From contig CANRJN010000033.1 of the NCBI GenBank assembly GCA_947630945.1, forward strand, positions 1 through 15,471: a DNA stretch of 15,471 nt, given 5' to 3'. The translations under genes and the position numbers were made by a program. The stretch is from an uncultured Bacilli bacterium (GTDB lineage Bacteria; Bacillota_I; Bacilli_A; RF39; UBA660). Below, one piece after another: positions 511 through 15,471 of this stretch. The notes below the pieces were generated by a model. It searched no databases, was not told where the DNA came from, and worked only from the letters and a program-made list of their open reading frames with translations. Position 1 is the first letter of the stretch. The number at the start of each line of letters is the position of its first letter.

Positions 511-1764
511 CTATAAGCTATTAGATTTCAAATTATCATTAGGAAGTATTGTATATTCATCAGTAATAGCATTTTCAATACCAATTAACCATTTCTCATC
601 TTTTAAGTATGTTCCTCTTAAATCACAATTAGTAAAATCTCCAAATAAATTAGAATCATTAAACTTAGCATAACTTAAATCTTTATTATATGCAAGTTGT
701 GGGTTATAACTAACTAAATTAGTTTCACTCCAATCAATACCGGATAATTTTAAATTACTAGGTGTAACTAAAGATAAATCAATAAATTTTAATACAGGAA
801 CAAATTCACTTCTAACTTCAAAATGACCATTAATATTTTCAAATAATAGATTTTCATCTACTTTAATACTATGGTATATATCTTTCATTATATTATTATT
901 TGGTTTATTTAATTTTTCTAATCTTTGAACACTTTCATTAACAAAATTAATTGAAGTTAATATACTATTTATTAATTCTTTTCTTTCAGCATTAATTCTT
1001 TTTTCCTCTTTTTGTTTTTCTTCTATCTTATCCATTTCATTTTTATTTTCATCTTCGTTATTATTATAGCCTGCTATTTCTTTGAATTTATCATAATCAA
1101 CAAAACCTTTTGAATTATATTCAGACATAAATTGTTCAAAAGCATTTTTAATATCTTTTTTAGAAATAACTAATTTAGGATAACCTTTTAAATAGGTAAT
1201 TAAAGGTATTTTAGCAAGTATTTTAACATTAATATACTCTTTACCTGTTAATATATCTTTTAAATAATTATTCTCAGTAAACTTACTTTTATCTCTATCA
1301 TATTTTATTTTTGGATAACTGCTTATAAATATATTTGTTTTATTATCTTTTTTCACAATATAGATATCTAATCTTCTAACAAAAATAGGCATTAAATTAT
1401 CACTTTCTTCAAAGATTATTATTTCTTTATTTGGATTTATTTTATTTAATTTGCAAAATGTTTTTACTAAATCTTTATCACATTCAATATACTGCTTACA
1501 TTTTTCAATTGGTAAAACAATTTTCATTTCATCATAATCATAATAATTATGATAAAAAATATCTCTATAAGTACCAAGACCATCTATATATACTATTATA
1601 TAATAATCATCTTTATGTAATTTTTTAAGAAATTTAAATTTAGCAATATACAAGTCTTTGCTATCATAATTTTCATCTGGATTTACTAATTCTAAAACAC
1701 CATATTTTTTTGCTTTTATTTTGTTTTCATTAACTTCATCATTTTTAAAGTATTTATCATCCAT
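511..1764 (-). CDS. Pentapeptide-repeat-containing protein: unknown N-terminal domain, K/E-rich coiled-coil-like middle, C-terminal pentapeptide repeats
   Basis: 417-aa ORF with a strong RBS (GGGGGAG 8 nt upstream of the ATG). The C-terminal ~80 aa has A(D/N)LxX-type periodicity (LSGIDWSETNLVSYNPQLAYNKDLSYAKFNDSNLFGDFTNCDLRGTYL). The middle segment EDENKNEMDKIEEKQKEEKRINAERKE is charged and helical in character. Confidence 0.6.
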   Translation of the reverse strand: MDDKYFKNDEVNENKIKAKKYGVLELVNPDENYDSKDLYIAKFKFLKKLHKDDYYIIVYIDGLGTYRDIFYHNYYDYDEMKIVLPIEKCKQYIECDKDLVKTFCKLNKINPNKEIIIFEESDNLMPIFVRRLDIYIVKKDNKTNIFISSYPKIKYDRDKSKFTENNYLKDILTGKEYINVKILAKIPLITYLKGYPKLVISKKDIKNAFEQFMSEYNSKGFVDYDKFKEIAGYNNNEDENKNEMDKIEEKQKEEKRINAERKELINSILTSINFVNESVQRLEKLNKPNNNIMKDIYHSIKVDENLLFENINGHFEVRSEFVPVLKFIDLSLVTPSNLKLSGIDWSETNLVSYNPQLAYNKDLSYAKFNDSNLFGDFTNCDLRGTYLKDEKWLIGIENAITDEYTILPNDNLKSNSL

Positions 1765-5154: not shown

Positions 5155-6108
5155 TTATTTCATTTTTAAAATTTTTTCTACCTCTTTATCTTCTTCATTT
5201 AGAGTAGTATCATCTGCAAATAATTGTGCAAAATTTTCTCTATTTGCAAATATATCTTCATATCTTTCTTTATTTAAAAGTTCCATTAAATTTATTAAAC
5301 CAATATTTTCTTTTGAATTTCTATTGTTTTTTTCAATTATCATTTTAATATTTTTTATAATGTTAACATTTTTATGGAAAAGAAACGTGAATTTATTATT
5401 TTGAGTTTGTATTATTGCATTTTCTAACTTTTCTATATTAGCTCCTTCTACATATCTAGCGAAATTATAAATATATTCGGCAGACCCTATTTGAATAATC
5501 GCGTCTTGTAATTTCTCAAAATTAGAACCTCTTACATATTTTGCAAATTTATAAATATATTCGGCAGACCCAGTTTTAGCAATTGTTTTCTCTAATTTTT
5601 TTATATTTACACCTTCAATATAATAAGCAAAATTATAAATATATTCGGCATCCATTGTTTGAATTATTGCATTTGCTAACTTTTCTATATTAGCTCCTTC
5701 TACATATCTAGCAAAATTATAAATATATTCGGCATCCATTGTTTGAATTATTGCATTTTCTAACTTTTCTATATTAGCTCCTTCTACATATCTAGCAAAA
5801 TTATAAATATATTCGGCAGACCCTATTTGAATAATCGCATCTTGTAATTTCTCAAAATTAGAACCTTTTATATGTTTTACAAATTTATAAATATATTCGG
5901 CATCCATTGTTTGAATTATTGCATCTTCTAACTCTTCTAAATTTGCATCTTTTACACCACATGCAAAATAATAAATATAATTAGGATTATTGCTCTTTAT
6001 TACTGCTTCACAAGCCCTTTTTTTATCAATAATCTCTAATTCTACTAATTTTAAAAATCCATTATAATTTTGATTCATCAATTGTACCACATTCAAATTC
6101 ATATGCAT
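5155..6108 (-). CDS. Tandem-repeat protein with seven 28-aa helical-looking repeats (consensus AEYIYNFARYVEGANIEKLENAIIQTMD)
   Basis: 317-aa ORF. Repeat anchors ATAAATATATTCGG recur every 84 bp at 5467, 5551, 5635, 5719, 5803 and 5887, with a degenerate copy at 5971. The RBS AAGGAG abuts the first ATG, so the second ATG (6102, MNLNVV...) is the likelier start. Paralog of 7104..7757. Confidence 0.75.
   Translation of the reverse strand: MHMNLNVVQLMNQNYNGFLKLVELEIIDKKRACEAVIKSNNPNYIYYFACGVKDANLEELEDAIIQTMDAEYIYKFVKHIKGSNFEKLQDAIIQIGSAEYIYNFARYVEGANIEKLENAIIQTMDAEYIYNFARYVEGANIEKLANAIIQTMDAEYIYNFAYYIEGVNIKKLEKTIAKTGSAEYIYKFAKYVRGSNFEKLQDAIIQIGSAEYIYNFARYVEGANIEKLENAIIQTQNNKFTFLFHKNVNIIKNIKMIIEKNNRNSKENIGLINLMELLNKERYEDIFANRENFAQLFADDTTLNEEDKEVEKILKMK
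5388..5979. repeat. In-frame 84-bp tandem repeat array (7 units) with a 336-bp higher-order duplication
   Basis: Strict 84-bp periodicity. Units starting near 5635 and 5719 differ by about one base. The block ~5404-5570 is ~95% identical to ~5740-5906, an offset of 336 bp (4 units). Confidence 0.85.
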
Positions 6109-6202
6109 ATCTCCTTTTTAAATATATATTATACTTAAGATTTTAAAAATTGCAAGTTAAAAAATAAAATGTGATGTAATTAGTAATCTTTTATATTCTT
6201 TT
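6095..6202 (-). repeat. Copy A of a duplicated ~107-bp start-codon, RBS, promoter and upstream block (copy B at 7744..7850)
   Basis: Identical to 7744..7850 except for one substitution and one 1-bp indel. Confidence 0.9.
6128..6155 (-). promoter_or_regulatory. Putative promoter of the 317-aa repeat-protein gene
   Basis: On the gene strand: TTGCAA (-35), 16-nt spacer, perfect TATAAT (-10), then AAAGGAG RBS. The same architecture is conserved in copy B. Confidence 0.45.
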
Positions 6203-6233
6203 CAAATATAGGTGTTTATCTTAATTTTTAATA

Positions 6234-7103: not shown

Positions 7104-7757
7104 TTATTTTTTTAAATTTCTTTCTAATACTTGTTCTTCTTTATTTTTATTATAATTTTGTTCATTAATAGTTCTTGTATTTATGATATCTTTTAAATAT
7201 TGTATAAATTTTATATCTCCTATTTTAAAATTAGCTTTTGCTAATTCTTCTATATTTGCACCATCAACATAATAAGCAAAATAATAAATATATTCGGCAT
7301 CTCCAGATTGAATTATTGCTTCTTCTAACTTTTTAATATTAGCTTTTTCAACATACTTAGCAAATCTATAAATAAATTCTACATCTTTTGTTTTAATAAT
7401 AGCTTCTTCTAATTTTTCTATGTTTGCACCTTTTATATCACTAGCAAATTCATAAATATATTCTGGATCTTCTAATTTGATAACAGCTTCTTGTAACTTT
7501 TCAATATTAGCTTTTTCTATATCTTTAGCAAATCTAAAAATATATTCAGCATTTTTTAATTGAATTATTACATCTTCTAATTTTTCAATATTAACTTCTT
7601 TTACATTCAAAGCAAATTCATAAATATATTTAACATTATTACTTTTACTAACTGCTTCACAAGCTACTTCTTTATCAATAAACCCTAATTCTACTAATTC
7701 TAAAAATCCCTTAAAGTATTGGTTTATTAATTGCATTATATTTAAATTCATATGCAT
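7104..7757 (-). CDS. Tandem-repeat protein, shorter and more diverged paralog of 5155..6108 (5-6 repeats of 28 aa)
   Basis: 217-aa ORF. The N-terminus MHMNLNIMQLINQYFKGFLELVELGFIDKEVACEAV matches MHMNLNVVQLMNQNYNGFLKLVELEIIDKKRACEAV. Repeats look like AEYIFRFAKDIEKANIEKLQEAVIKLED. The upstream block is the same as for the paralog. Confidence 0.75.
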   Translation of the reverse strand: MHMNLNIMQLINQYFKGFLELVELGFIDKEVACEAVSKSNNVKYIYEFALNVKEVNIEKLEDVIIQLKNAEYIFRFAKDIEKANIEKLQEAVIKLEDPEYIYEFASDIKGANIEKLEEAIIKTKDVEFIYRFAKYVEKANIKKLEEAIIQSGDAEYIYYFAYYVDGANIEELAKANFKIGDIKFIQYLKDIINTRTINEQNYNKNKEEQVLERNLKK

Positions 7758-7850
7758 ATCTCCTTTTTAAATATATATTATACTTAAAATTTTAAAATTG
7801 CAAGTTAAAAAATAAAATGTGATGTAATTAGTAATCTTTTATATTCTTTT
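7744..7850 (-). repeat. Copy B of the duplicated start-codon, RBS, promoter and upstream block
   Basis: See 6095..6202. Putative -10 TATAAT at 7777-7782 and -35 TTGCAA at 7798-7803 (15-nt spacer) on the gene strand. Confidence 0.9.
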
Positions 7851-8001
7851 AAAAATTATTATAAGTTTCTAATCTATTTTCTTCTTTTAAAATTCCCTTA
7901 AAATTATAATTATTATTTTCTTTACTAATTATATCAACATTTCCATCTTCATCTGTAACAGCACTAAGATTATTGCTTATTTGAATTAAATTTTTATTCA
8001 T
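7849..8001 (-). CDS. Possible small ORF (50 aa), unknown function
   Basis: ATG at 8001 is preceded by GAAGGA with 6-nt spacing. Product: MNKNLIQISNNLSAVTDEDGNVDIISKENNNYNFKGILKEENRLETYNNF. Not in the supplied track because it is too short. There is no homology evidence. Confidence 0.3.
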   Translation of the reverse strand: MNKNLIQISNNLSAVTDEDGNVDIISKENNNYNFKGILKEENRLETYNNF

Positions 8002-8053
8002 TTATTATCCTTCTTTCATTGGTTTTTTATTATATTAATAAAATAATATTTGT

Positions 8054-8122
8054 CATTTAATTAAAAATACACTTAATTATTTTTTAAGTTTATATGTGTC
8101 TAAGTCATTAATATTATAATCA
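8054..8122. repeat. Direct repeat, left copy (right copy at 15029..15097)
   Basis: 63 of 69 positions are identical, including a 25-nt perfect core CACTTAATTATTTTTTAAGTTTATA. Confidence 0.85.
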
Positions 8123-8277
8123 TAATTACCATTTATAAATTTTTTTATATCTTCAATATTAAGTAATTTTAGTTTCAAACTAACTAATTCTCCAGCATAT
8201 TTTTCATTTTCTTCAAAACTGGATACATATGAATATGCTTTTTCTAATAAATCTTTATTTTCAGTAATTAAATATAT
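8077..8277 (-). pseudogene. 3' fragment (66 codons, no start) of a paralog of the 15052..15471 gene
   Basis: Translates to ...IKKFINGNYDYNINDLDTYKLKK*, compared with ...FANLLIDFDYNITDLDTYKLKK* at 15052. The DNA and the downstream flank are 91% identical over 69 bp. The open frame ends at an upstream stop (8278-8280), where the transposase remnant begins. Confidence 0.65.
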
Positions 8278-8280
8278 TTA

Positions 8281-8984
8281 GAACACTTAACAAGACAAGG
8301 CATTTAGAATAATTAATCAAATTACCGTTGATCTTGAAAATATGAAAGAAGTTACATAAATTAGTAAAGATGTACAATATTTACTTATGATTCCTTTTTC
8401 AATAGTTTGTTTTTTGTTATATATATATATATTGTTTAGTAATAGCATATTTTGTTAAAAGAAAAAAACTTAAAAAATATTCATTATTTTGTTTCTTCTA
8501 AATTATCTTATGAAGAATTATGGGAAGTTATATTTGATTATGTTAATAAAAAATATGATATTGACAAATTTGAAAATATATTTATTTCTGGTGATGGTGC
8601 ACCTGGTATTAAAAATTATACTAATTGCTTCCCTAATGCTAAATTTGTCTTAGATCCATTCCATTATATTAGAAAACATTTAAATGTTATTTTTAAAGAT
8701 AATATTGATTTAAGAAATATTGCTGATAGCTATATAAGAAATGATTTGATTTCTGATTTTAAATTTTTAGTTCAATCTCAAATAGAAAAGTATCCTAATG
8801 ATAAAAATAATATAACTTATCATATGAATTATATTATAAATAATTTAGATGGTATTAAAAATCAACATGATAAGGTTATAAAATTCATTGTTCTATGGAA
8901 GGACATGTTAATTAAGCTTTTGCTAGATATATTACTTCTTCTCCTATAAGAATATTCGTCATCATTAGAATACAATCTATCTAA
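8281..8984 (+). pseudogene. Decayed DDE transposase remnant (UPF0236/ISLre2-like; ISL3-like not excluded)
   Basis: The 165-aa ORF contains ...FISGDGAPGIKNYTNCFPNAKFVLDPFHYIRK..., a GDGA..I / LD.FH pattern typical of these transposases. The N-terminal half is missing. There is a frameshift near 8870-8890, and the continuation frame (GYKIHCSMEGHVN*AFARYITSSPIRIF...) carries an in-frame TAA at 8913-8915. The remnant ends at 8984, abutting the stop of the convergent vWA gene. Confidence 0.5.
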
Positions 8985-10493
8985 TTATTCTCCATTTATT
9001 AATATTACTCTTCCACCTTTTGGATTTATTTTATTTTCTCCAAATACTATCCAAATAGCATCCATAGGCATATCAGGCATTTCTGCTTTTCCATCAGTAA
9101 ATATTATTTTATTTTCAACTCTTCTTGTAAATGCTTTAACTGCTGTATTAAAGTCAGTTCCACCACCACCTTGAAATTCCATATTTTCAATATCTTCTTC
9201 TCTTCTTATTTCATAAAAACCATAAAATTCTGTATCAAAACATCCAACTTTTAATCTTGAATGTTGCAAAATGTTTTTACATTCTCTTAAAAAATTTCTA
9301 AGTAATGTTTCATCTATTGAACCACTTGTATCTAATACTATTTCAGTTTCTGGCATAGGTTGTTCTTCTAATGTAGCACTTAATACTCCATCTTCAATAT
9401 AAGCATTTTTATAAGACCAATCAATATCATATTTAATTGTTTCTCTTAAAATATATCTCCAATCTAATATTTGTCTAGATTTTCCAATATCATTTACAAC
9501 TCTTTGAGCACCAGTTGAATAATTACCTGCTCCCATAGATTGTTGAGATAACATTTCTTTTAATTTTTCTAATTCTTTTCTTTTATTTTCTAAATGTTTT
9601 TTAAATGCTTTTTTTTCTCCCATTTTACTAATTTTATCTATTTCATCTTTTAATTCTTTATTTTTATCATTTTCTTTAATTTTCTTTAAAGCATCTTTCC
9701 ACATACTATGCGTATCATGTCCAACATCTTTATCTTCACTGTCTTCTTTATTTTCATTAGAATCTTTTTCTTTATCTTTCGAAGAGTTTTCATTACCATG
9801 TTGTTTATCTTTTTCTATACCATCTTTATCTTCTTTTTCTTCTGCTGAATTACCTTCTTTATCTACTTTATCTGAATCATTATTATTTTGTGATGAACCA
9901 CTTTGACCATTTTGATTTTGAGATGATAGATTATTTTCTTGATTATCTTCACTTTGATTACTATTTTGTGATGAATTTCCTTGACCATTTTGATTTTGAG
10001 ATGATTGATTATTTGATGAATTTTGTTTATTTGAGTTGTTTTGTTGATTATTTTGATTATTCTCTTGTTGATTTGATTCATTATTTTTATTAGAATCTTT
10101 TTGTTCTTTTAGTAATTTTTCATATAGTTGTTCTGAATCATAATTAATAGCTTCTGGTATATCTACTGCACCTTTAACCATTTTTAATCCATCACGTTTT
10201 AATAATTGATTTATTACACCATCTGTAGCTATATTCCAAACACTTGGATTTTTATCTTCACTTTTTTTTATATGATCAAATGCAATATGGCAAACTTCAT
10301 GAGCAAATACAAAAGTTTGTTGATCTGAATCTAATCCATTTAAAAACTTAGAATTATAATATATATTTTTTCCATCAGTAGCTGCTGTTGGTATATCATT
10401 ATTTTCTTTATAATTTACATTTGCTAATACACTACCAAAAAATCCATATTTTACATACATTCTTCTTTTAATTTCTTCAATATCAAAATTCAT
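8985..10493 (-). CDS. HExxH metallopeptidase-like N-domain plus C-terminal vWA domain with complete MIDAS (DUF2201_N/DUF2201-like), split by a long low-complexity linker
   Basis: 502-aa ORF. The N-domain has FVFAHEVCHIAFDH (HExxH). The C-domain has VLDTSGSI (DxSxS), GGGTDF and IIFTDG, the canonical MIDAS elements. The RBS GGAGAA lies inside the end of the upstream gene, and the intergenic gap is 3 nt. Confidence 0.8.
   Translation of the reverse strand: MNFDIEEIKRRMYVKYGFFGSVLANVNYKENNDIPTAATDGKNIYYNSKFLNGLDSDQQTFVFAHEVCHIAFDHIKKSEDKNPSVWNIATDGVINQLLKRDGLKMVKGAVDIPEAINYDSEQLYEKLLKEQKDSNKNNESNQQENNQNNQQNNSNKQNSSNNQSSQNQNGQGNSSQNSNQSEDNQENNLSSQNQNGQSGSSQNNNDSDKVDKEGNSAEEKEDKDGIEKDKQHGNENSSKDKEKDSNENKEDSEDKDVGHDTHSMWKDALKKIKENDKNKELKDEIDKISKMGEKKAFKKHLENKRKELEKLKEMLSQQSMGAGNYSTGAQRVVNDIGKSRQILDWRYILRETIKYDIDWSYKNAYIEDGVLSATLEEQPMPETEIVLDTSGSIDETLLRNFLRECKNILQHSRLKVGCFDTEFYGFYEIRREEDIENMEFQGGGGTDFNTAVKAFTRRVENKIIFTDGKAEMPDMPMDAIWIVFGENKINPKGGRVILINGE
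9884..10005. repeat. Coding direct repeat inside the low-complexity linker
   Basis: A ~44-bp unit at 9884-9927 recurs at 9962-10005 (78-bp offset). It includes a perfect 25-mer TTGACCATTTTGATTTTGAGATGAT at 9903-9927 and 9981-10005, and encodes SSQNQNGQ(S/G)... twice. Confidence 0.8.
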
Positions 10494-10496
10494 AAT

Positions 10497-10889
10497 CTAT
10501 TCTCCAATATGAGCAACTAATGAATAAATTTTTTCATTAATTGTATCTTTATTTATTTTGTTTGCTGTTATAATTATTACAATATTTTCAGGTAATTCAA
10601 AAATTGATATTTTTCTATATTTTAATAATTCAACAAATTTTAATTGATCTTCTTTAGAAATACTATCAATATTATTTATAACTAATACTTGTTTATTTTT
10701 TAATTCATAATACCAATCAGGAGCAACAAAATCTATATTTTCATAATGTCCATTTAATTTATTTTTATCTATATCTGCATTTAATATTATTGAGTCTGGA
10801 AAGCTATTTCCATCTATAAAATCAATTAAAATTGGAGATATATTATTTTTAATATATTCTTTTAACAAATTAATTTTTGTTTTATTCAT
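10497..10889 (-). CDS. P-loop-less, Walker-B-degenerate paralog of the adjacent AAA+ core (pseudo-ATPase subunit)
   Basis: The 130-aa ORF aligns by eye with residues ~240-400 of the 542-aa ATPase:
- IDFVAPDWYYELKNKQVLVINNID vs IDIKPSWLKKLENI...HIVFFDEI
- LPENIVIIITAN vs LPDNARIVAAGN
- YSLVAHI vs FNRFAHV
The GPSSEGKS P-loop segment is replaced by IDGNSFPDS. RBS GGGGGA; 2-nt gap after the ATPase stop. Confidence 0.65.
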   Translation of the reverse strand: MNKTKINLLKEYIKNNISPILIDFIDGNSFPDSIILNADIDKNKLNGHYENIDFVAPDWYYELKNKQVLVINNIDSISKEDQLKFVELLKYRKISIFELPENIVIIITANKINKDTINEKIYSLVAHIGE

Positions 10890-10891
10890 AT

Positions 10892-12520
10892 TTATCCCCC
10901 TAATTGTAATTTCTTTATAGCTACTTGTTCTAATCTTTTTTCATTTCCCTGTGCATATAAGGAATTAAATATTGATTCAAACTCAGGTCCTATTTTTGAT
11001 ACAAAACTTCTTACTTTATCATAGTTTTCTTCATCTACTTGTGATAAATTTACTGCTGTTAAATATAATGATGCTGTATTTAATAATGCTATGTCTTCTA
11101 ATGTGTATTTGTCTTGTAATACTCCTTCTAATGTTATTACCTCTTGATTACAAAATTCTACAAATTCATTTGTTATATCTTCTCCTACTAGTGATCTTAT
11201 CATTTTTGGATTTCCTGTCTTATATAACATCTTTGATGCCATTTCCCATTTCCTTGGATCTGCATTTGGTTTTTCTCCTGTATATTTACTTCTAAGTGAT
11301 CTTCCACCTGTGTATGCAATATATGCACATATTGCTGGGTGTATATTATTTTCACTTGCCCACTTTAACCAACCATCTGGTGTTGTTTTTATATATACAT
11401 GAGCAAATCTATTAAATAATGGTTCTGCAAGTTGATTTGCTGCGAGTGAATCTTTCATTTCATTTCCTGCAGCTACTATTCTTGCATTATCTGGTAGTTT
11501 CCATATTCCATTTACTTCTTTATCTAATATTATATTAAAAGCAATACCTTGAATACTTGGAAGAGCATTTGTAATTTCATCAAAAAATACAATGTGTAAT
11601 TTATCTGGTTCACTCTCACAAATATTCTCTAATTTTTTAAGCCAAGATGGTTTAATATCAATCATTTCATGAGTATCTTGATTATACACACTTTTTCCAT
11701 TTAAACTTTCAGGACTTGAATTTCTTAAATATATTATTATTGCATTTGGATCAATTTGTTTTACTCTTGAACTTTTTCCTTCACTTGAAGGTCCATGTAA
11801 AAATACTGCTACTCCACTTTCAATAGATCCTTTAATTATTTCTTCTTCACTTACTGAATCAAACGTTAAATTATATGGATTCTGTTTAAAATTTCTTTCT
11901 TTATTTGTATTTTTCACTATACTATTAGTCTTTTTTGATGATAATGAATTATCTAAACCTAAATCTTTTATCATATAATTATCTAAATATTCTTTCATTA
12001 CTGTTGCAGAAAAATTGCCATCATAATCTTTATCTTTTGACTGAAATGGTATACCAGATAAAAGACATCTTTTAGATATTAAAGTTTTAGTTTTTCTATC
12101 TATTAACCATCTAACAGGCGATACTTTTATCCATATTCTGCCATAATCTGTATATAATTTTCCATCTGATAATATAAATGGTTTAATAACATATTTATTT
12201 GTTCCTGCTTTTATTGAACTTGCTGACTCTATTCTAATATATTTTTTATTATTATATTCGTATTCATCATAATTAATAGGTTGAAATCCTTTAGAATCAT
12301 CAACATTTGCTTTATTAAAAGTATAATTTTTACCTGTTTTTTTCATATTACCATCATGATATTCATTCTCTAACACTTCTTGAATATCAGAATCTGGAAC
12401 ATATTGTGGATATTCACCAAGTTCTACTTCTTCACAATCATTATATCCACGTATAATACTGATTAGTAAATTGATGAATTTGCAAATCATTGATTTATTA
12501 GTATAATAATTTTTAATCAT
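10892..12520 (-). CDS. AAA+ ATPase of the AAA_5/MoxR-like type with an N-terminal ~230-aa DUF6273-like (N-half) domain
   Basis: Motifs: Walker A FLHGPSSEGKSS, Walker B LHIVFFDEITNA, sensor-1 RIVAAGNE, LFNRFAHV. The N-terminus has LGEYPQ...PVRWLIDRKTKTLISKRCLL...FSATVMKEYLDNY, resembling the first half of DUF6273. There is no RBS upstream of the tracked ATG. The frame stays open upstream to 12556, into or adjacent to the IS110 element. Confidence 0.8.
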   Translation of the reverse strand: MIKNYYTNKSMICKFINLLISIIRGYNDCEEVELGEYPQYVPDSDIQEVLENEYHDGNMKKTGKNYTFNKANVDDSKGFQPINYDEYEYNNKKYIRIESASSIKAGTNKYVIKPFILSDGKLYTDYGRIWIKVSPVRWLIDRKTKTLISKRCLLSGIPFQSKDKDYDGNFSATVMKEYLDNYMIKDLGLDNSLSSKKTNSIVKNTNKERNFKQNPYNLTFDSVSEEEIIKGSIESGVAVFLHGPSSEGKSSRVKQIDPNAIIIYLRNSSPESLNGKSVYNQDTHEMIDIKPSWLKKLENICESEPDKLHIVFFDEITNALPSIQGIAFNIILDKEVNGIWKLPDNARIVAAGNEMKDSLAANQLAEPLFNRFAHVYIKTTPDGWLKWASENNIHPAICAYIAYTGGRSLRSKYTGEKPNADPRKWEMASKMLYKTGNPKMIRSLVGEDITNEFVEFCNQEVITLEGVLQDKYTLEDIALLNTASLYLTAVNLSQVDEENYDKVRSFVSKIGPEFESIFNSLYAQGNEKRLEQVAIKKLQLGG

Positions 12521-12543
12521 TTTTATAAAAATGATTAAAAATT
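12508..12543. repeat. Perfect 36-bp palindrome covering the ATPase start codon
   Basis: AATTTTTAATCATTTTTA|TAAAAATGATTAAAAATT is an exact reverse complement of itself. Positions 12507 and 12544 no longer pair. Confidence 0.95.
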
Positions 12544-12544
12544 T

Positions 12545-12713
12545 ACGCGGTTGAGTTTAGGCAAATTATAACAGGGGTTTTCATATCCATTGAAATGACG
12601 GCCTAGCTCTTTTCTTTTTATGTTCCTAGTTTTAGAATGTGAGAATTTATTTCTATATAACAAGCGTGATGAGGAGTAAGAGGTTAAAAAGAGTTCAATC
12701 GTAAAATGAAAGG
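12545..12713 (+). ncRNA. Candidate IS110 bridge RNA (non-coding left end upstream of the recombinase)
   Basis: Locally elevated G+C (ACGCGG, CAGGGG, GACGGCCTAGC, GCGTGATGAGGAG) in an otherwise ~20% GC window, with no ORF. A possible long-range helix pairs 12605-12613 (AGCTCTTTT) with 12687-12695 (AAAAGAGTT). The position matches where IS110-group elements encode their guide RNA. Confidence 0.45.
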
Positions 12714-13904
12714 ATGGTGCTTATGCACAATTGTTTAGCTATTGATGTAGCTAAAGGCAAAAGTATGGTTACTTTAATTAGTTCTTGTGGTGAAGTTCTA
12801 ATTAATCCATACGAAATTAATCATTCTATTAATGATTTTTCTAATTTACTTAATAGAATTAAAAAATTAAAATTAGATAATGTTTCTGTAATAATGGAAT
12901 CTACTGGTATTTATCATAAACCTGTTGAAAGATTTTTCTTAGAAAACAATTTCAAAGTTTTTGTTATTAATCCCATTTATGGAAAAATGCAAAAAAGGAA
13001 TATTAGAAAGACTAAAACTGATAAAGAAGATTGTTTTAATTTAGCTAATCTATTTTTTACTAATGCTTTTAAACAATATAATAAACCAGATAAGTTATAT
13101 TTAGATTTGAATGCTTTATCTAGACAATATTTTGCTTTGGATGAATTATGTGTAAATATTAAGAATAGGTATCGTAATCTACTTTATTTATGCTTTCCTG
13201 AATTTGAAAAAATATTTAAAGGCAATACAATTTATTCTAATCTTGCTTTAGAATTTATTGAAAAATATCCTCATGCTGATATTATTTCTAATACTAGAAT
13301 AGATAAATTACAGAATTTCTTTAAAAAACATGAATTTAGATACTGGAAGAAAAAGGCATCTATGATTAAAGAATTTGCTTTTAATTCTTACCCATCTGTT
13401 AATGAGAATGATGAACTTGTTTCTAACTTATCACAAATAGCTGGATTAATTATTGAGTATCAAAAATCAATCGATATAATTAAATATAAAATTATTTTTC
13501 TAGCAAAGAAAACTAAATATTTTGATTCTATTAATTCTATATTTGGTGTTGGTGAATTTACTACTTCTATTATTATTGCTGAGTTAGGTGATATTAATAG
13601 ATTTCATAATATTAAAGAATTAACTGCTTATTGTGGTTTAGATCCATCTATTAAACAATCAGGAAAGTCTATTAATGTTCATGGCCCTATTTCCAAATCA
13701 GGAAATAAATATATTAGAAAAATCTTATTTATTATTTGTTTAAATATTATTAAACTATCTTCTAAATGCCATAATGAAAATGATATTGAAATTTATTACA
13801 GAAAAAAGCGTAACGAAGGTAAACATCATTACGCCGCAACAATTGCTTGTACAACTAAACTTCTTCGACAAATTTTAGCTTTGTGTAAGCAATTAGATAA
13901 GTAG
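12714..13904 (+). CDS. IS110-family transposase/recombinase (DEDD RuvC-like N-domain plus Tnp C-domain)
   Basis: The N-terminus CLAIDVAKGKS...IMESTGIYH is typical of the DEDD_Tnp_IS110 domain. The C-terminus has FGVGEFTTSIIIAELGDINRFHNIKELTAYCGLDPSIKQSGKS (Transposase_20-like). The likely true start is the ATG at 12723, which has 9-nt spacing from AAAGGA. Confidence 0.9.
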   Translation: MVLMHNCLAIDVAKGKSMVTLISSCGEVLINPYEINHSINDFSNLLNRIKKLKLDNVSVIMESTGIYHKPVERFFLENNFKVFVINPIYGKMQKRNIRKTKTDKEDCFNLANLFFTNAFKQYNKPDKLYLDLNALSRQYFALDELCVNIKNRYRNLLYLCFPEFEKIFKGNTIYSNLALEFIEKYPHADIISNTRIDKLQNFFKKHEFRYWKKKASMIKEFAFNSYPSVNENDELVSNLSQIAGLIIEYQKSIDIIKYKIIFLAKKTKYFDSINSIFGVGEFTTSIIIAELGDINRFHNIKELTAYCGLDPSIKQSGKSINVHGPISKSGNKYIRKILFIICLNIIKLSSKCHNENDIEIYYRKKRNEGKHHYAATIACTTKLLRQILALCKQLDK

Positions 13905-14006
13905 TTACACCACATAACTACATTTAAATTATATACCAAATCAACACATTATTTCTAATTTTTTTAAAAAATAGAAATCTCGTGTGTTTTTGTTGTGTCT
14001 ATAATA

Positions 14007-14396
14007 TCACAAATATTTATGCTTGACAAATCTTAGAATGTCATTAATTTTGTTTCTCCATAATAAGTCAAATATATCAGGATTTTTTATAATTGGTCTA
14101 ATAGCAACTTGACGAAAAAATTGTAATGTAGAACCCATATTACCTGCTTCATTACCAATTATAATATTGCCAAGGATATCAGAAGATTGTGTAAAATATG
14201 AACATGTTCTACCTTTCATACTACCATCATCTGGTATACGATTAATCTCAAAGCTATATGAACCACCAGTTAATATTGCTAAATCACTTATAGCAGCAAT
14301 TGTTCCATATTTTTCTAATACTTCTAATTTTTTATTTTCCCATATTTCTTCTTTAAGTAAAGTTAATCCCTCATTACTATTCATATTTTCATCCAC
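14007..14396 (-). CDS. Small protein resembling the C-terminal half of a DUF6273-like domain
   Basis: LTLLKEEI..., ...AAISDLAILTGG..., ...GRTCSYFTQSS... and ...GNEAGNMGSTLQFFRQVAIRPII follow the order of the VFLLS / T.YA..G / WWLRS / VRPA motifs. The tracked start is GTG (14396). The ATG at 14384 (MNSNEG...), preceded by GGTGGA, is more likely. The last ~10 codons may overlap the IS110 right end. Confidence 0.5.
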   Translation of the reverse strand: MDENMNSNEGLTLLKEEIWENKKLEVLEKYGTIAAISDLAILTGGSYSFEINRIPDDGSMKGRTCSYFTQSSDILGNIIIGNEAGNMGSTLQFFRQVAIRPIIKNPDIFDLLWRNKINDILRFVKHKYL

Positions 14397-14443
14397 CTAA
14401 TTGTAATTTCTTTATAGCTACTTGCTCTAATCTTTTTTCATTT
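14378..14443 (-). repeat. Copy of the ATPase 3' end, stop, RBS and next-gene start junction (original at 10883..10946)
   Basis: 66 bp vs 64 bp, with two substitutions and one 2-bp indel. It encodes NEKRLEQVAIKKLQLGG-stop, as at the end of the 542-aa ATPase. Both substitutions are synonymous (GAA/GAG Glu, GGG/GGT Gly). Confidence 0.9.
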
Positions 14444-14451
14444 TTAAGCTC

Positions 14452-14916
14452 TTAATGTCTATTAAAGAAATTTAATATTTTATTTTTAATTTTTGAATTG
14501 TTCTGTTTCTCAAATTCATAAACAAATTTTTCTAAATAATCATATGCATTTATATACACCCATTCACGAAATTGTTTACGATTTGGTATCTCAATAACTT
14601 TTTTATTCATAAAAAGATCCACTGCATCTTCACCCGTTGTATATCTTATATAAGTAGATTTATAAGTTTTTCTATATTTACCTACAATAGTAGAAAATGA
14701 ATTAAGAATATCTTTAATATAGTCAACTTGGTCTAAAGTTATTTCAGAATTATTTAATACTATACCATCTAAAATTATTGTTCCTCTATCTAATCCAAAA
14801 TATAATGCATTATTTTGATTATTTTTTTCTTTTGTAGTATAGATAAACTTTTCATTATCAAATACAAACATTTCATAATCTATATCTCTATCTCTTAAAA
14901 AAATTTCTAGCATCAA
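14452..14916 (-). CDS. Hypothetical protein (154 aa as tracked)
   Basis: Intact ORF. The likely start is the ATG at 14913, preceded by GGGGGG with 5-nt spacing. No recognisable motif. Its TAA stop is in frame with the 20-codon ATPase-tail remnant that follows. Confidence 0.55.
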   Translation of the reverse strand: MMLEIFLRDRDIDYEMFVFDNEKFIYTTKEKNNQNNALYFGLDRGTIILDGIVLNNSEITLDQVDYIKDILNSFSTIVGKYRKTYKSTYIRYTTGEDAVDLFMNKKVIEIPNRKQFREWVYINAYDYLEKFVYEFEKQNNSKIKNKILNFFNRH

Positions 14917-15028
14917 ATCCCCCCTTTTAATTGCTATATATTATACAACATTTTCAATTACAAAGGAATCAAATAAGACAAAAAAGGTAAAACTTAAAAA
15001 TATTTTAGAAAAAATAATGGTGTAGAAT

Positions 15029-15097
15029 CATTTAAATAAAAATTCACTTAATTATTTTTTAAGTTTATAAGTATCTAAATCAGTAATATTATAATCA
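15029..15097. repeat. Direct repeat, right copy (left copy at 8054..8122)
   Basis: See 8054..8122. Confidence 0.85.
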
Positions 15098-15471
15098 AAA
15101 TCTATTAAAAGATTAGCAAATTCATTTATTGATTCTTCATTAATTTCTTGTTTTAGTAATATGGTTAAATCTTCCATTAATAAATCAAATAAATATTTAC
15201 TAGCATCTAAAATATTATCAAATGCTTTTTCTCTACAAAATGTTCCTCTATCATTTGTTTGCCATACAATCCATAAATTATTAGATTTAAAAATACAAGG
15301 TTGATAAAAATTATTGTATGGACTCATATGAAAACAAACTTGTAATTTATTAGCTACTTCACTTAAAAACTTTAAAGTTTTAACTTCCTCAAATGTTAAA
15401 TCATATGTTTCAGGATATTTTTTTAAAAAAGTTTCAATATGATCAGTTTTGCATTCTTCAAATATATCCAT
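15052..15471 (-). CDS. Hypothetical protein; the start coincides with the window edge, so it may be 5'-incomplete
   Basis: 139-aa ORF whose ATG occupies the last three bases of the window. Its C-terminus DFDYNITDLDTYKLKK is shared with the truncated paralog at 8077..8277. Confidence 0.55.
   Translation of the reverse strand: MDIFEECKTDHIETFLKKYPETYDLTFEEVKTLKFLSEVANKLQVCFHMSPYNNFYQPCIFKSNNLWIVWQTNDRGTFCREKAFDNILDASKYLFDLLMEDLTILLKQEINEESINEFANLLIDFDYNITDLDTYKLKK

What the first reader, a model, noticed from the sequence alone, without database searches (positions are those of the whole stretch)
8985..12520. Candidate novel three-component module: DUF6273-like/AAA_5 ATPase, P-loop-less AAA paralog, and HExxH-peptidase/vWA protein
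Three minus-strand genes are translationally coupled, with 2-nt and 3-nt gaps and each RBS embedded in the preceding gene.

The ATPase has intact Walker A/B, sensor-1 and the L.NRF motif of MoxR/AAA_5 enzymes. The last gene combines a zinc-peptidase HExxH motif with a complete MIDAS vWA domain.

MoxR-type ATPase/vWA pairs are established two-component remodelling machines (RavA-ViaA, CbbQ-CbbO, NorQ-NorD). Some MoxR-vWA modules have been proposed from comparative genomics to act in NTP-dependent conflict systems.

This version is unusual in four ways:
1. It has an N-terminal DUF6273-like putative ligand- or surface-binding domain on the ATPase.
2. It has a dedicated inactive AAA paralog.
3. 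It has a protease fused to the vWA partner, a plausible effector or activator.
4. It sits in a repeat-bracketed patch with two IS elements and several pseudogenes.

It is the best candidate in this window for an undescribed sensor (N-domain), switch (AAA plus pseudo-AAA) and effector (vWA-peptidase) system, for example anti-phage or anti-MGE. That function is inference only.
Basis: partly seen in the sequence, partly recalled or inferred. Interest (0 to 1): 0.8.

Follow-up and report, generated by a model that had tools for sequence, protein, structure and literature searches.

The report
IS-broken copy of hypermutation-targeted ATPase module
The three genes are a real, conserved operon of gut Bacilli (sensor-ATPase, P-loop-less ATPase paralog, zinc-peptidase/vWA protein) whose ATPase head is hypermutated by a diversity-generating retroelement in related genomes, but the copy in this window has lost that retroelement and its ATPase gene is split by an IS110 insertion.

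Summary
The trio is real: three minus-strand ORFs with 2-nt and 3-nt gaps. Motifs check out (intact Walker A/B; HExxH plus DxSxS MIDAS). The 130-aa protein is a P-loop-deleted paralog of the ATPase core.

The "542-aa ATPase" is a truncated gene. An IS110 element (12450-14041) sits after codon 114. The true N-terminus is at 14384-14042, and the first 23 codons of the ORF are IS sequence.

In related genomes the intact ~640-aa ATPase is preceded by Avd-like gene, template repeat and reverse transcriptase. Codons ~72-105 form a variable region: 130 of 146 TR/VR mismatches lie at template adenines. Across 103 near-identical proteins, variation is confined to that segment. So the head is a DGR-diversified, cytoplasmic ligand-binding domain, which supports the "sensor" idea.

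The window lineage has no RT or TR, and its VR has decayed to AT-rich sequence.

No PADLOC hit and no defence-island enrichment were found, and there is no conserved neighbour. Function is inferred. The closest described systems are the DGR-linked MoxR-vWA "ternary" conflict systems, but this architecture differs from them. Verdict: a new variant of a known kind, present here as a degenerate copy.

The parts
14042..14384 (-). 5' fragment (codons 1-114) of the sensor-ATPase gene. The ORF then reads on into IS sequence and stops at 14007.
   Evidence: 94% identical to L008 53-403 and L086 11085-11435, which are intact alleles. The protein aligns to residues 1-115 of the 621-642-aa homologs.
14076..14186 (-). 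Fossil variable-region equivalent (codons ~72-108). It is AT-rich and the GC-rich IMH-like end is lost.
   Evidence: GC is 0.30 here, against 0.40-0.58 in most relatives. The sequence reads GCTATTAGACCAATTATA in place of GCYGTYCGCCCAGCTTTGC. No template repeat or RT is present in the window.
12450..14041 (+). IS110-family insertion sequence (transposase 12714-13904) interrupting the ATPase gene after codon 114.
   Evidence: Pfam DEDD_Tnp_IS110 5e-28 and Transposase_20 5e-21. Breakpoints were defined against the uninterrupted alleles L008 and L086.
10892..12449 (-). 3' part of the sensor-ATPase gene (codons 115-633): second half of the head domain, linker, AAA+ core and C-terminal helical region. 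The called ORF extends to 12520 through 23 IS-derived codons.
   Evidence: 96.5% identical to L008. phrog_1297 ATPase 1e-48. AAA_5 only E 0.023. Walker A/B, sensor-1 and the Arg are invariant.
10497..10889 (-). 130-aa AAA+ alpha/beta-core-only paralog lacking the P-loop and the Walker-B glutamate.
   Evidence: hhalign against the ATPase alignment gives E 4e-6 with a 7-residue gap at Walker A. The AF2 model has pLDDT 87.5. Foldseek top hits are MoxR 2r44, NorQ 9qh7, CbbQ2 6l1q and Rea1 6hyp, with TM 0.62-0.69. 0 of 66 homologs have Walker A.
8985..10493 (-). 502-aa protein: N-terminal HExxH metallopeptidase-like domain, a low-complexity N/Q/S/E/K linker, and a C-terminal vWA domain with DxSxS MIDAS.
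   Evidence: DUF2201_N 4e-31 and DUF2201 3e-14. phrog_1314 8e-62. Motif conservation was checked across the family. Homologous to a phage 'metallopeptidase' next to a gp24-like ATPase.
14385..14443 (-). 59-nt remnant of the 3' end of a formerly upstream tandem ATPase paralog.
   Evidence: 93% identical to 10888-10946 (D12). In L086 a second ATPase gene directly precedes the intact gene.
8452..8949 (+). Truncated UPF0236-family transposase fragment abutting the 3' end of the operon.
   Evidence: Pfam UPF0236 1e-13, covering only profile positions 199-335 of 400.
8053..8126 (.). Left copy of the 74-nt direct repeat that brackets the patch. The right copy is at 15028-15101.
   Evidence: 91% identity (D8). 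It is the 3' end of gene 15052-15471 and of a decayed paralog remnant at ~8085-8280.

Best explanation
**What the family is.** The window holds a degenerate copy of a four-part system found in gut Bacilli and Clostridia with small, low-GC genomes.

**Intact form.** A diversity-generating retroelement (Avd-like gene, template repeat, reverse transcriptase) lies directly upstream of three translationally coupled genes. The retroelement rewrites codons ~72-105 of the first gene by adenine-specific mutagenesis. This gives each cell lineage a different binding surface on a cytoplasmic ~280-residue head domain. The head is fused to an active MoxR/AAA_5-like AAA+ ATPase.

**Inferred mechanism.**
1. 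The head binds a changing intracellular ligand, most plausibly a phage or mobile-element protein.
2. Binding changes the ATPase ring. The P-loop-less 130-aa paralog either joins the ring as a non-catalytic subunit or regulates it.
3. The ring acts through the MIDAS vWA domain of the third protein, as NorQ does on NorD. This either activates the tethered HExxH zinc peptidase or feeds the bound target to it.

**This window.**
- The retroelement is gone.
- The variable segment has drifted to genomic AT-richness.
- An IS110 element split the ATPase gene after codon 114. The insertion is recent, because the flanking gene parts are still 94-98% identical to intact alleles.
- This copy is therefore most likely non-functional as a sensor.

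**Shown versus inferred.** Shown: gene anatomy, the IS break, the DGR link and the hypervariation. Inferred: the ligand, the signalling order and the biological role.
For: **IS break.** Intact alleles L008 and L086 join window 14042 to 12449.

**DGR link.**
- Of 75 species-level genome loci, 13 have a full RT (10 of them with a detectable Avd-like gene) directly upstream of the ATPase. 7 more have RT remnants at the same place.
- 12 loci have TR/VR pairs in which 130 of 146 mismatches sit at template adenines. A fixed A-to-C difference lies in the GC-rich 3' end.
- The RT carries LGNQSSQ and YMDD motifs (sequence).
- The 193-aa upstream protein gives a weak bAvd hit (E 0.01).

**Hypervariation.** 103 proteins are 97.7% identical outside residues 72-105 and 73% identical inside. 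Entropy is 0.87 bits inside versus 0.02-0.13 elsewhere.

**VR composition.** In relatives the VR is a GC island (0.44-0.49 against a locus GC of 0.29), even in many RT-less loci. In the window lineage it is not (0.30).

**Head domain.**
- It is modelled confidently (pLDDT 91.6).
- It has no TM segment or signal-like hydrophobic stretch.
- The family comprises 2785 clusters at 50% identity and is fused to varied C-terminal modules.

**Pseudo-AAA.**

**Peptidase-vWA.**

**Independent cassette.** 207 different Pfam families occur among 150 flanking genes, with no recurrent partner. Positions include between greA and tig, and next to rpoC or tRNA synthetase genes.

**Precedent.** DGR-diversified sensors coupled to MoxR and vWA proteins are described in PMC7159879 and PMC10907252.
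Against: - No experimental or PADLOC support for defence.
- Flanking genes are mostly housekeeping, with few defence hits.
- The ATPase does not reach Pfam AAA_5 or any PDB sequence match, so 'MoxR-like' rests on weak hits and on the paralog's predicted fold.
- The head model has no significant Foldseek match in PDB or BFVD, so a C-type-lectin fold is not demonstrated.
- Most loci (55 of 75) have no intact or remnant RT nearby. The trio persists there, so it can work, or at least survive, without ongoing diversification.
- The truncated window ORF keeps all catalytic motifs and a start codon, so residual activity cannot be excluded.
Confidence: 0.6

Rival explanations
1. Programmable protease. 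The same parts work as a targeted degradation machine rather than as a signalling switch. The hypervariable head captures a foreign protein, the AAA+ ring unfolds it, and the vWA-tethered HExxH peptidase degrades it. This would be analogous to FtsH or Lon, where an AAA+ module and a protease act together.
For: An active AAA+ ATPase and a zinc-peptidase motif are strictly co-inherited and translationally coupled. The Foldseek neighbours of the paralog core include Lon as well as MoxR-type rings. The variable head is on the ATPase itself, where substrate adaptors sit in AAA+ proteases.
Against: MoxR/AAA_5-type rings with vWA partners (NorQ-NorD, CbbQ-CbbO) are remodelers, not known unfoldase-proteases (established knowledge of those families). 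Pore-loop analysis was not done. The DUF2201_N peptidase has never been shown to be active.
Confidence: 0.15
2. Housekeeping MoxR-vWA maturation factor. The trio inserts a cofactor into, or remodels, a cellular complex, as NorQD, CbbQO and RavA-ViaA do. Its head variability would then be incidental.
For: There is a general precedent of MoxR-vWA pairs. The trio often sits between housekeeping genes. No defence model hit was found.
Against: There is no conserved client gene nearby: 207 families occur among 150 neighbours. Copy number varies from one to six heads per locus, with tandem arrays. Pseudogenisation and IS disruption are tolerated. A dedicated DGR hypermutates the head, which is not expected for a fixed client.
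Confidence: 0.08
3. Phage-derived module serving a mobile element. The ATPase and peptidase-vWA pair would be a domesticated or prophage-borne version of the N4 gp24/gp25 core pair, acting in phage replication, assembly or superinfection exclusion.
For: The AAA part hits 652 phage records at 26-28% identity, and phrog_1297 and phrog_1314 match strongly. gp24 and gp25 are core middle genes of N4-like phages (PMC4193335). The phage partner is homologous in both the HExxH and MIDAS regions. One IMG/VR contig carries the full cassette next to lysis-like genes.
Against: The head domain and the 130-aa paralog have no match in 50,697 phage genomes. The two phage genes next to the gp24-like ATPase gene that were tested do not match the paralog. 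Only 1 of 2.9 million viral contigs holds a close relative, and ABC-transporter genes separate it from the phage-like genes. The genome loci are chromosomal with housekeeping neighbours.
Confidence: 0.08
4. The window's truncated ORF is still a working gene. The IS110 end supplies a start codon, and perhaps a promoter. The product would be a head-clipped ATPase that, with its two partners, acts constitutively or as a ligand-independent variant.
For: The ORF is open from an ATG in the IS end through all catalytic motifs. The downstream genes are intact and coupled.
Against: No RBS or promoter was examined or is evident upstream of 12520. The removed 114 residues are part of one compact predicted domain, so the remainder is likely misfolded. 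The same truncated product is recorded on only one other metagenome contig, L003, which is 99.98% identical and breaks off inside the IS; the closest other relatives have the uninterrupted gene.
Confidence: 0.05

Closest known systems
DGR-associated vWA-MoxR 'ternary' conflict systems (Kaur, Burroughs, Iyer & Aravind 2020, PMC7159879; Dore et al. 2024, PMC10907252)
   Same: A MoxR-like AAA+ ATPase, a vWA protein and a peptidase are encoded together. A diversity-generating retroelement hypermutates a predicted cytoplasmic ligand-binding domain of one component. The proposed logic is sensor, then NTPase switch, then effector.
   Different: - In those systems the variable C-type-lectin/FGS domain is C-terminal and sits on the vWA component. 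Here it is N-terminal and sits on the ATPase.
- There is no VMAP protein here.
- The peptidase here is a DUF2201_N HExxH domain fused to the vWA protein, not a trypsin or caspase.
- A P-loop-less AAA paralog is an extra dedicated subunit.
- The hosts are small-genome gut Bacilli and Clostridia, not multicellular cyanobacteria, actinobacteria or Chromatiales.
MoxR-vWA remodelling pairs NorQ-NorD, CbbQ-CbbO, RavA-ViaA
   Same: An AAA+ ring is paired with a MIDAS-containing vWA partner. The predicted structure of the 130-aa paralog is closest to MoxR CHU_0153, NorQ and CbbQ2 cores.
   Different: The ATPase does not reach the Pfam AAA_5 threshold and has no PDB sequence match. There is no client enzyme operon. 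It has a hypervariable head, a peptidase fusion and a pseudo-AAA subunit.
N4 gp24 / gp25 (vWFA) core gene pair of Schitoviridae and related phage pairs (phrog_1297 + phrog_1314)
   Same: The AAA part (26-28% identity) and the HExxH-vWA protein are homologous. The genes are adjacent or nearly so.
   Different: The phage ATPases are ~350 aa and have no head domain. They have no 130-aa paralog and no DGR. The function of the phage pair is itself unknown (PMC4193335).
DGR variable proteins with DUF6273 / C-type-lectin heads, e.g. gut-phage tentaclins (PMC10743442) and Faecalibacterium prophage targets (PMC11792537)
   Same: They are adenine-mutagenised VRs ending in a G-x-R-P motif. In tentaclins the VR lies in an N-terminal domain. 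The VR segment here gives a weak DUF6273 match to the C-terminal end of the profile (E 0.03-0.04).
   Different: The match is below threshold. Only the VR segment resembles DUF6273, and it precedes the rest of the domain instead of ending it. An artificial circular permutation did not improve the match. The model has no Foldseek hit to solved C-lectin DGR proteins. The protein is cytoplasmic and fused to an ATPase, so it is not a virion or surface protein.
CPR/DPANN DGR targets with AAA/Midasin-like ATPase domains (Wu et al. 2018, PMC5758913; cited in PMC10907252)
   Same: The DGR target is a variable domain fused to an AAA-type ATPase, in organisms with reduced genomes.
   Different: As described in PMC10907252, the variable ligand-binding region there is C-terminal. 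Homology to this family was not tested here. N-terminal VRs were seen in only 3 of 372 DGRs in that survey.

Membership tests
Diversity-generating retroelement target (family level, related loci) | Template repeat / variable repeat pair whose differences fall at template adenines | tested here: met
   12 loci have TR/VR pairs. Over the 14 loci scanned (two gave only short spurious matches), 130 of 146 mismatches are at TR adenines.
Diversity-generating retroelement target (family level, related loci) | Adjacent DGR-type reverse transcriptase (RVT_1 with GxxxSQ and YxDD motifs) | tested here: met
   RVT_1 8e-19. LGNQSSQ and YMDD are seen in the sequence. A full RT lies upstream in 13 of 75 loci and remnants in 7 more.
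Diversity-generating retroelement target (family level, related loci) | Accessory variability determinant (Avd) | tested here: inconclusive
   A 193-aa protein upstream of the TR gives only a weak bAvd-like hit (E 0.01, 16.7 bits against a cut-off of 40). It is conserved in position next to the RT in 10 of the 13 loci with a full RT; the other three contigs end or are deleted just upstream of the RT.
Diversity-generating retroelement target (family level, related loci) | Population-level hypervariation confined to the VR | tested here: met
   In 103 proteins, identity is 97.7% outside the VR and 73% inside. The entropy peak is at residues 83-97.
Diversity-generating retroelement target (this window's copy) | RT, TR and a GC-rich VR/IMH present | tested here: not met
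   No RT by tblastn and no TR-like repeat. VR-equivalent GC is 0.30 and the IMH-like motif is absent.
C-type lectin / DUF6273 variable domain | Pfam DUF6273 (PF19789) match above the gathering score | tested here: not met
   The best result is E 0.034, 14.5 bits against a cut-off of 23.5. It falls only on the VR segment and matches profile positions 122-168 of 172. There is no hit on the part inside the finding.
C-type lectin / DUF6273 variable domain | C-type-lectin fold | tested here: inconclusive
   The AF2 model is confident (pLDDT 91.6). Foldseek finds nothing with E below 0.05 in PDB or BFVD. A phage DUF6273 protein ranks second at E 0.13 with TM 0.24.
MoxR / AAA_5 ATPase | Pfam AAA_5 match above the gathering score | tested here: not met
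   E 0.0035-0.028, 15-18 bits against a cut-off of 22, always to profile positions 65-139. The PDB profile search found nothing at E up to 10.
MoxR / AAA_5 ATPase | Intact Walker A, Walker B, sensor-1 and arginine | tested here: met
   G243, K249, D314, E315, N353 and R371 are invariant. 89 of 96 ORFs have both Walker motifs.
MoxR / AAA_5 ATPase | MoxR-like three-dimensional core | tested here: inconclusive
   Only the 130-aa paralog was modelled. Its best PDB neighbours are MoxR 2r44, NorQ, CbbQ2 and Rea1, but also Lon, MCM and NtrC1.
MoxR / AAA_5 ATPase | Cognate vWA partner with MIDAS encoded alongside | tested here: met
   DUF2201 vWA-like domain 3e-14. DTSGS plus downstream T and D are present.
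DUF2201_N/DUF2201 metallopeptidase-vWA proteins | Both Pfam domains above the gathering score, with an HExxH motif | tested here: met
   109 and 53.5 bits against cut-offs of 23.2 and 26.4. HEVCH or HEICH is present in 64 of 65 ORFs.
vWA-MoxR ternary conflict system (Kaur et al. 2020) | Third component is a VMAP protein | not tested
   No VMAP profile was available. The third gene here is a 130-aa AAA-core paralog, which is not the VMAP architecture as described in PMC7159879.
Known anti-phage defence systems (PADLOC-DB v2) | Any component matches a PADLOC model | tested here: not met
   No hits for the three window proteins or for their L004 homologs. Only the RT matches generic RT models.

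The most novel reading that the evidence does not exclude
Small-genome gut Bacilli carry a somatically diversifying intracellular immune receptor. A retroelement rewrites the antigen-binding head of an AAA+ ATPase, and the ATPase then drives a dedicated zinc peptidase through a vWA/MIDAS coupling, helped by a pseudo-ATPase subunit. Lineages that lose the retroelement, like the one in this window, would compensate with germline tandem arrays of paralogous heads.
Probability: 0.3. Interest if true: 0.85.

Novelty: new variant of a known kind. Interest (0 to 1): 0.62.

Why it matters
**If the family works as inferred.** It would be a compact, five-gene example of adaptive-like receptor diversification wired directly to an ATPase and a protease. 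It occurs in abundant but uncultured human and animal gut bacteria.

**Testable points it offers.**
- DGR hypermutation aimed at a cytoplasmic target.
- A variable region at the N-terminus of the target. A survey of 372 DGRs found this in only 3 (PMC5758913).
- A first functional handle on the uncharacterised DUF2201 peptidase-vWA proteins.
- A first functional handle on the N4 gp24/gp25 core gene pair of phages.

**For this window.** The practical message is narrower. The locus is a decayed, IS-interrupted copy. It should be annotated as a disrupted gene plus two intact partners, not as an intact system.

Tried and rejected
**Searches that found nothing**
- PADLOC scans of the window trio and of the intact L004 homologs gave nothing except generic RT models.
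- NCBIfam gave nothing.
- Pfam on the ATPase gave only sub-threshold AAA hits.
- PDB sequence searches with the ATPase profile (E up to 10), the 130-aa profile and the vWA protein gave nothing meaningful.
- Foldseek of the confident head-domain model against PDB and BFVD gave no significant match. I therefore did not file the head as a C-type lectin.
- tblastn of the 130-aa protein and of the head domain against 50,697 phage genomes gave no match. A phage origin for those two parts was set aside.
- Rfam on the window gave no hit.

**Tests that came out negative**
- Circular-permutation idea: the VR segment precedes the rest of the domain, the opposite of DUF6273. Artificially permuted sequences scored no better in Pfam, so the idea is left unsupported.
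- hhalign of the 130-aa profile against two of the phage genes next to the gp24-like ATPase gene (one upstream, one downstream) showed no relation.
- Neighbour survey of 150 flanking proteins from about 55 loci: there was no recurrent partner and no clear defence enrichment. Both 'conserved housekeeping operon' and 'defence-island resident' were rejected as descriptions.

**Procedural**

Full report
**1. The observation**

The window is very AT-rich (18-28% GC). Three minus-strand ORFs lie at 10892-12520 (542 aa), 10497-10889 (130 aa) and 8985-10493 (502 aa). They are separated by 2 and 3 nt. GGGGGA and GGAGA Shine-Dalgarno-like motifs lie inside the last codons of the preceding genes.

- **Third protein.** It matches DUF2201_N (putative metallopeptidase, E 4e-31) and DUF2201 (vWA-like, E 3e-14). 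It carries HEVCH and DTSGS. These motifs are conserved in 56 of 65 family members, and most exceptions are cut by contig ends.
- **First protein.** It has no Pfam hit at E below 0.01. AAA_5 reaches only E 0.023, below the curated cut-off. It does match phage family phrog_1297 'ATPase' at 1e-48. Its Walker A, Walker B, sensor-1 asparagine and LFNRF arginine are invariant among relatives.
- **Middle protein.** It has no family hit.

**2. The ATPase gene is broken**

Homologs of the first protein are about 100 residues longer: 621-643 aa, and 2592 proteins match at E up to 1e-5. Their first ~115 residues align with a separate window ORF at 14007-14396.

Two uninterrupted alleles exist. One is L008, from a sister metagenome. 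The other is L086, a rabbit-gut Bacilli MAG that is 98% identical to the window. Both join window position 14042 directly to 12449.

An IS110-family element therefore occupies 12450-14041 (transposase 12714-13904). It is inserted after codon 114. The first 23 codons of the '542-aa ORF' are IS sequence. The flanking gene parts are still 94-98% identical to the intact alleles, so the insertion is recent.

A 59-nt copy of the ATPase 3' end sits just upstream of the N-terminal fragment (14385-14443). It is the remnant of a tandem ATPase paralog that is still present in L086.

A truncated UPF0236 transposase (8452-8949) and a 74-nt direct repeat (8053-8126 and 15028-15101) bound the patch.

**3. 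What the family is**

*Reverse transcriptase upstream.* In the contigs that carry the 63%-identical homolog P0028, the trio is directly preceded on the same strand by a 339-aa reverse transcriptase and a 193-aa protein. The 193-aa protein gives a weak bAvd-like hit.

*Template and variable repeats.* A 100-nt repeat links the spacer between those two genes (L004 8581-8680) to codons 72-105 of the ATPase (L004 10215-10314). 11 of its 12 mismatches fall at adenines of the upstream copy.

*Survey of 75 loci.* I scanned one genome per species. The 75 loci come mostly from uncultured gut Bacilli and 'Tenericutes' MAGs, plus Anaerovoracaceae such as Zhenpiania.
- 13 loci have a full RT at that position, 10 of them with a detectable Avd-like gene.
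- 7 more have RT remnants at that position.
- 12 loci yield TR/VR pairs. 130 of 146 mismatches are at template adenines, and a fixed A-to-C difference lies in the GC-rich 3' end, which behaves like an IMH/IMH* pair.
- The RT has the DGR-typical LGNQSSQ and YMDD motifs (sequence).

*Variation in natural populations.* Among 103 near-identical 642-aa proteins from different metagenomes, identity is 97.7% outside residues 72-105 and 73% inside. Up to 15 different residues occur at one position.

**4. State of the window lineage**

No RT and no TR-like repeat are present in the window.

In relatives the VR is a GC island. It averages 0.44-0.49 against a locus GC of 0.29, and this holds even in many loci without an RT. 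An IMH-like CGYCCRGC motif is often retained.

In the window, and in its closest relatives L008, L009 and L086, the equivalent segment (14076-14186) has 0.28-0.31 GC. It reads GCTATTAGACCAATTATA where the others have GCYGTYCGCCCAGCTTTGC. This lineage therefore lost diversification well before the IS insertion.

Arrays with two or more head-domain copies (extra ATPase genes or whole trios) are seen in 9 of 43 RT-less loci, but in only 1 of 19 loci with an RT or RT remnant. This is suggestive only. It would fit germline paralog arrays replacing somatic diversification.

**5. The parts**

*Head domain (residues ~1-280).*
- AlphaFold2 gives a confident single compact model (pLDDT 91.6, pTM 0.91).
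- Foldseek finds no significant match in PDB or BFVD.
- Pfam gives only a sub-threshold DUF6273 match. It is restricted to the VR segment and to the C-terminal end of the profile, and artificial permutation does not help.
- DUF6273 is a C-type-lectin-fold DGR target in gut phages (PMC10743442, PMC11792537). The resemblance is a lead, not a membership.
- The head has no TM or signal-like segment.
- Its family has 2785 clusters at 50% identity. It also occurs alone, in tandem, and fused to ankyrin, coiled-coil or pentapeptide-like modules.

*130-aa protein.*
- Profile-profile alignment places it on the ATPase core from just before Walker A to the LFNRF motif. A 7-residue gap removes the P-loop, and Walker B DE is replaced by D-K or N-N (E 4e-6).
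- Its model (pLDDT 87.5) is closest to MoxR CHU_0153, NorQ, CbbQ2 and Rea1 cores, with TM 0.62-0.69.
- None of 66 homologs has Walker A.
- It is absent from the Anaerovoracaceae-type loci, where the ATPase gene is followed directly by the peptidase-vWA gene.

**6. Context**

150 flanking proteins from about 55 loci hit 207 Pfam families. No partner recurs. The commonest families are HTH_3 and HTH_19, at 5 of 150. Neighbours include rpoC, tRNA synthetases, and greA/tig.

PADLOC hits among the neighbours are few, and none of the system's own proteins matches PADLOC.

The module is therefore an autonomous cassette. It is not part of a housekeeping operon, and by this crude test it is not a defence-island resident either.

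The AAA part and the peptidase-vWA protein are distant homologs of the N4 gp24/gp25 core pair, which is present in 652 phage records. The head and the 130-aa paralog have no phage counterpart. Only one IMG/VR contig has the full cassette, and there it lies beside a prophage rather than within it.

**7. Mechanism**

Shown: the anatomy, the DGR targeting and the hypervariation.

Inferred: the variable cytoplasmic head binds a changing ligand. The ATPase ring, with or regulated by the pseudo-AAA subunit, then acts through the MIDAS vWA domain to activate or feed the HExxH peptidase.

This parallels the sensor-switch-effector logic proposed for DGR-linked MoxR-vWA ternary systems (PMC7159879, PMC10907252). 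In those systems, however, the variable domain is C-terminal on the vWA protein, the peptidases are trypsin- or caspase-like, and a VMAP protein is the third part. N-terminal VRs are rare: 3 of 372 in PMC5758913.

I found no paper describing this architecture in the searchable library.

**8. Verdict**

- **Observation:** partly confirmed. The trio and its motifs are real. The ATPase ORF is a truncated, IS-fused fragment, and the DUF6273 and AAA_5 calls are sub-threshold.
- **Interpretation:** partly supported. The sensor idea gains strong indirect support from the DGR link. Defence function and full novelty are not established, and the window copy is degenerate.
- **Novelty:** new variant of a known kind.
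- **Interest:** 0.62. This is driven by the family rather than by this particular locus.

Noticed in passing
window 5155-6108 (-) and 7104-7757 (-): Two paralogous genes are built from 84-nt (28-aa) tandem repeats with similar N-termini. Each is preceded by a 65-nt block that is 97% identical between the two (6142-6206 and 7790-7854). A UDG-family gene lies between them. They have no Pfam family above threshold.
   Followed up: no
window 511-1764 (-): The C-terminal ~150 residues of this 417-aa protein are 36% identical (E 4e-19) to the C-terminus of P0274. The N-terminus of P0274 is the same head-domain family as the ATPase's. So a shared pentapeptide-like C-terminal module carries different heads in this group of bacteria.
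   Followed up: partly
window 8053-8126 and 15028-15101; remnant at ~8085-8280: A 74-nt direct repeat (91% identical) brackets the whole patch. It is the 3' end of gene 15052-15471 and of a decayed paralog remnant. This suggests the module plus IS elements sit between two copies of a duplicated gene.
   Followed up: partly
L076 ~9866-9976 and L077 ~9836-9946: The variable regions of these two reference MAGs contain in-frame stop codons, within the stretch of template-adenine mismatches. The retroelement has apparently produced null alleles that were captured in the assemblies.
   Followed up: no
L009 (whole 7196-nt contig); L034; L052; L086: The trio, or the ATPase gene alone, occurs in head-to-tail tandem arrays, with up to six head-domain copies in L034. 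The four VR copies in L052 are identical, and its TR/VR mismatches include many non-adenine positions. That DGR looks as if it is decaying.
   Followed up: partly
L074-L090 (Anaerovoracaceae, Oscillospiraceae-labelled and other Bacillota MAGs): A two-gene version exists. The ATPase with its head is followed directly by the peptidase-vWA gene, with no 130-aa pseudo-AAA gene. Locus GC is 0.42-0.48 and the VR GC reaches 0.69.
   Followed up: no
P0252-P0401, e.g. P0258, P0270, P0298, P0339: The head domain defines a large family (2785 clusters at 50% identity). It is also found stand-alone, duplicated or triplicated, and fused to ankyrin repeats, long coiled coils or unknown C-terminal regions. 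Whether those forms are DGR targets was not examined.
   Followed up: no
window 14452-14916 (-) and 15052-15471 (-): Two ORFs upstream of the broken ATPase gene have no family match in Pfam, NCBIfam or PHROGs, apart from one weak PHROG hit (E 0.002). They occupy the position where relatives have the RT and the Avd-like gene, but they are unrelated to them.
   Followed up: partly
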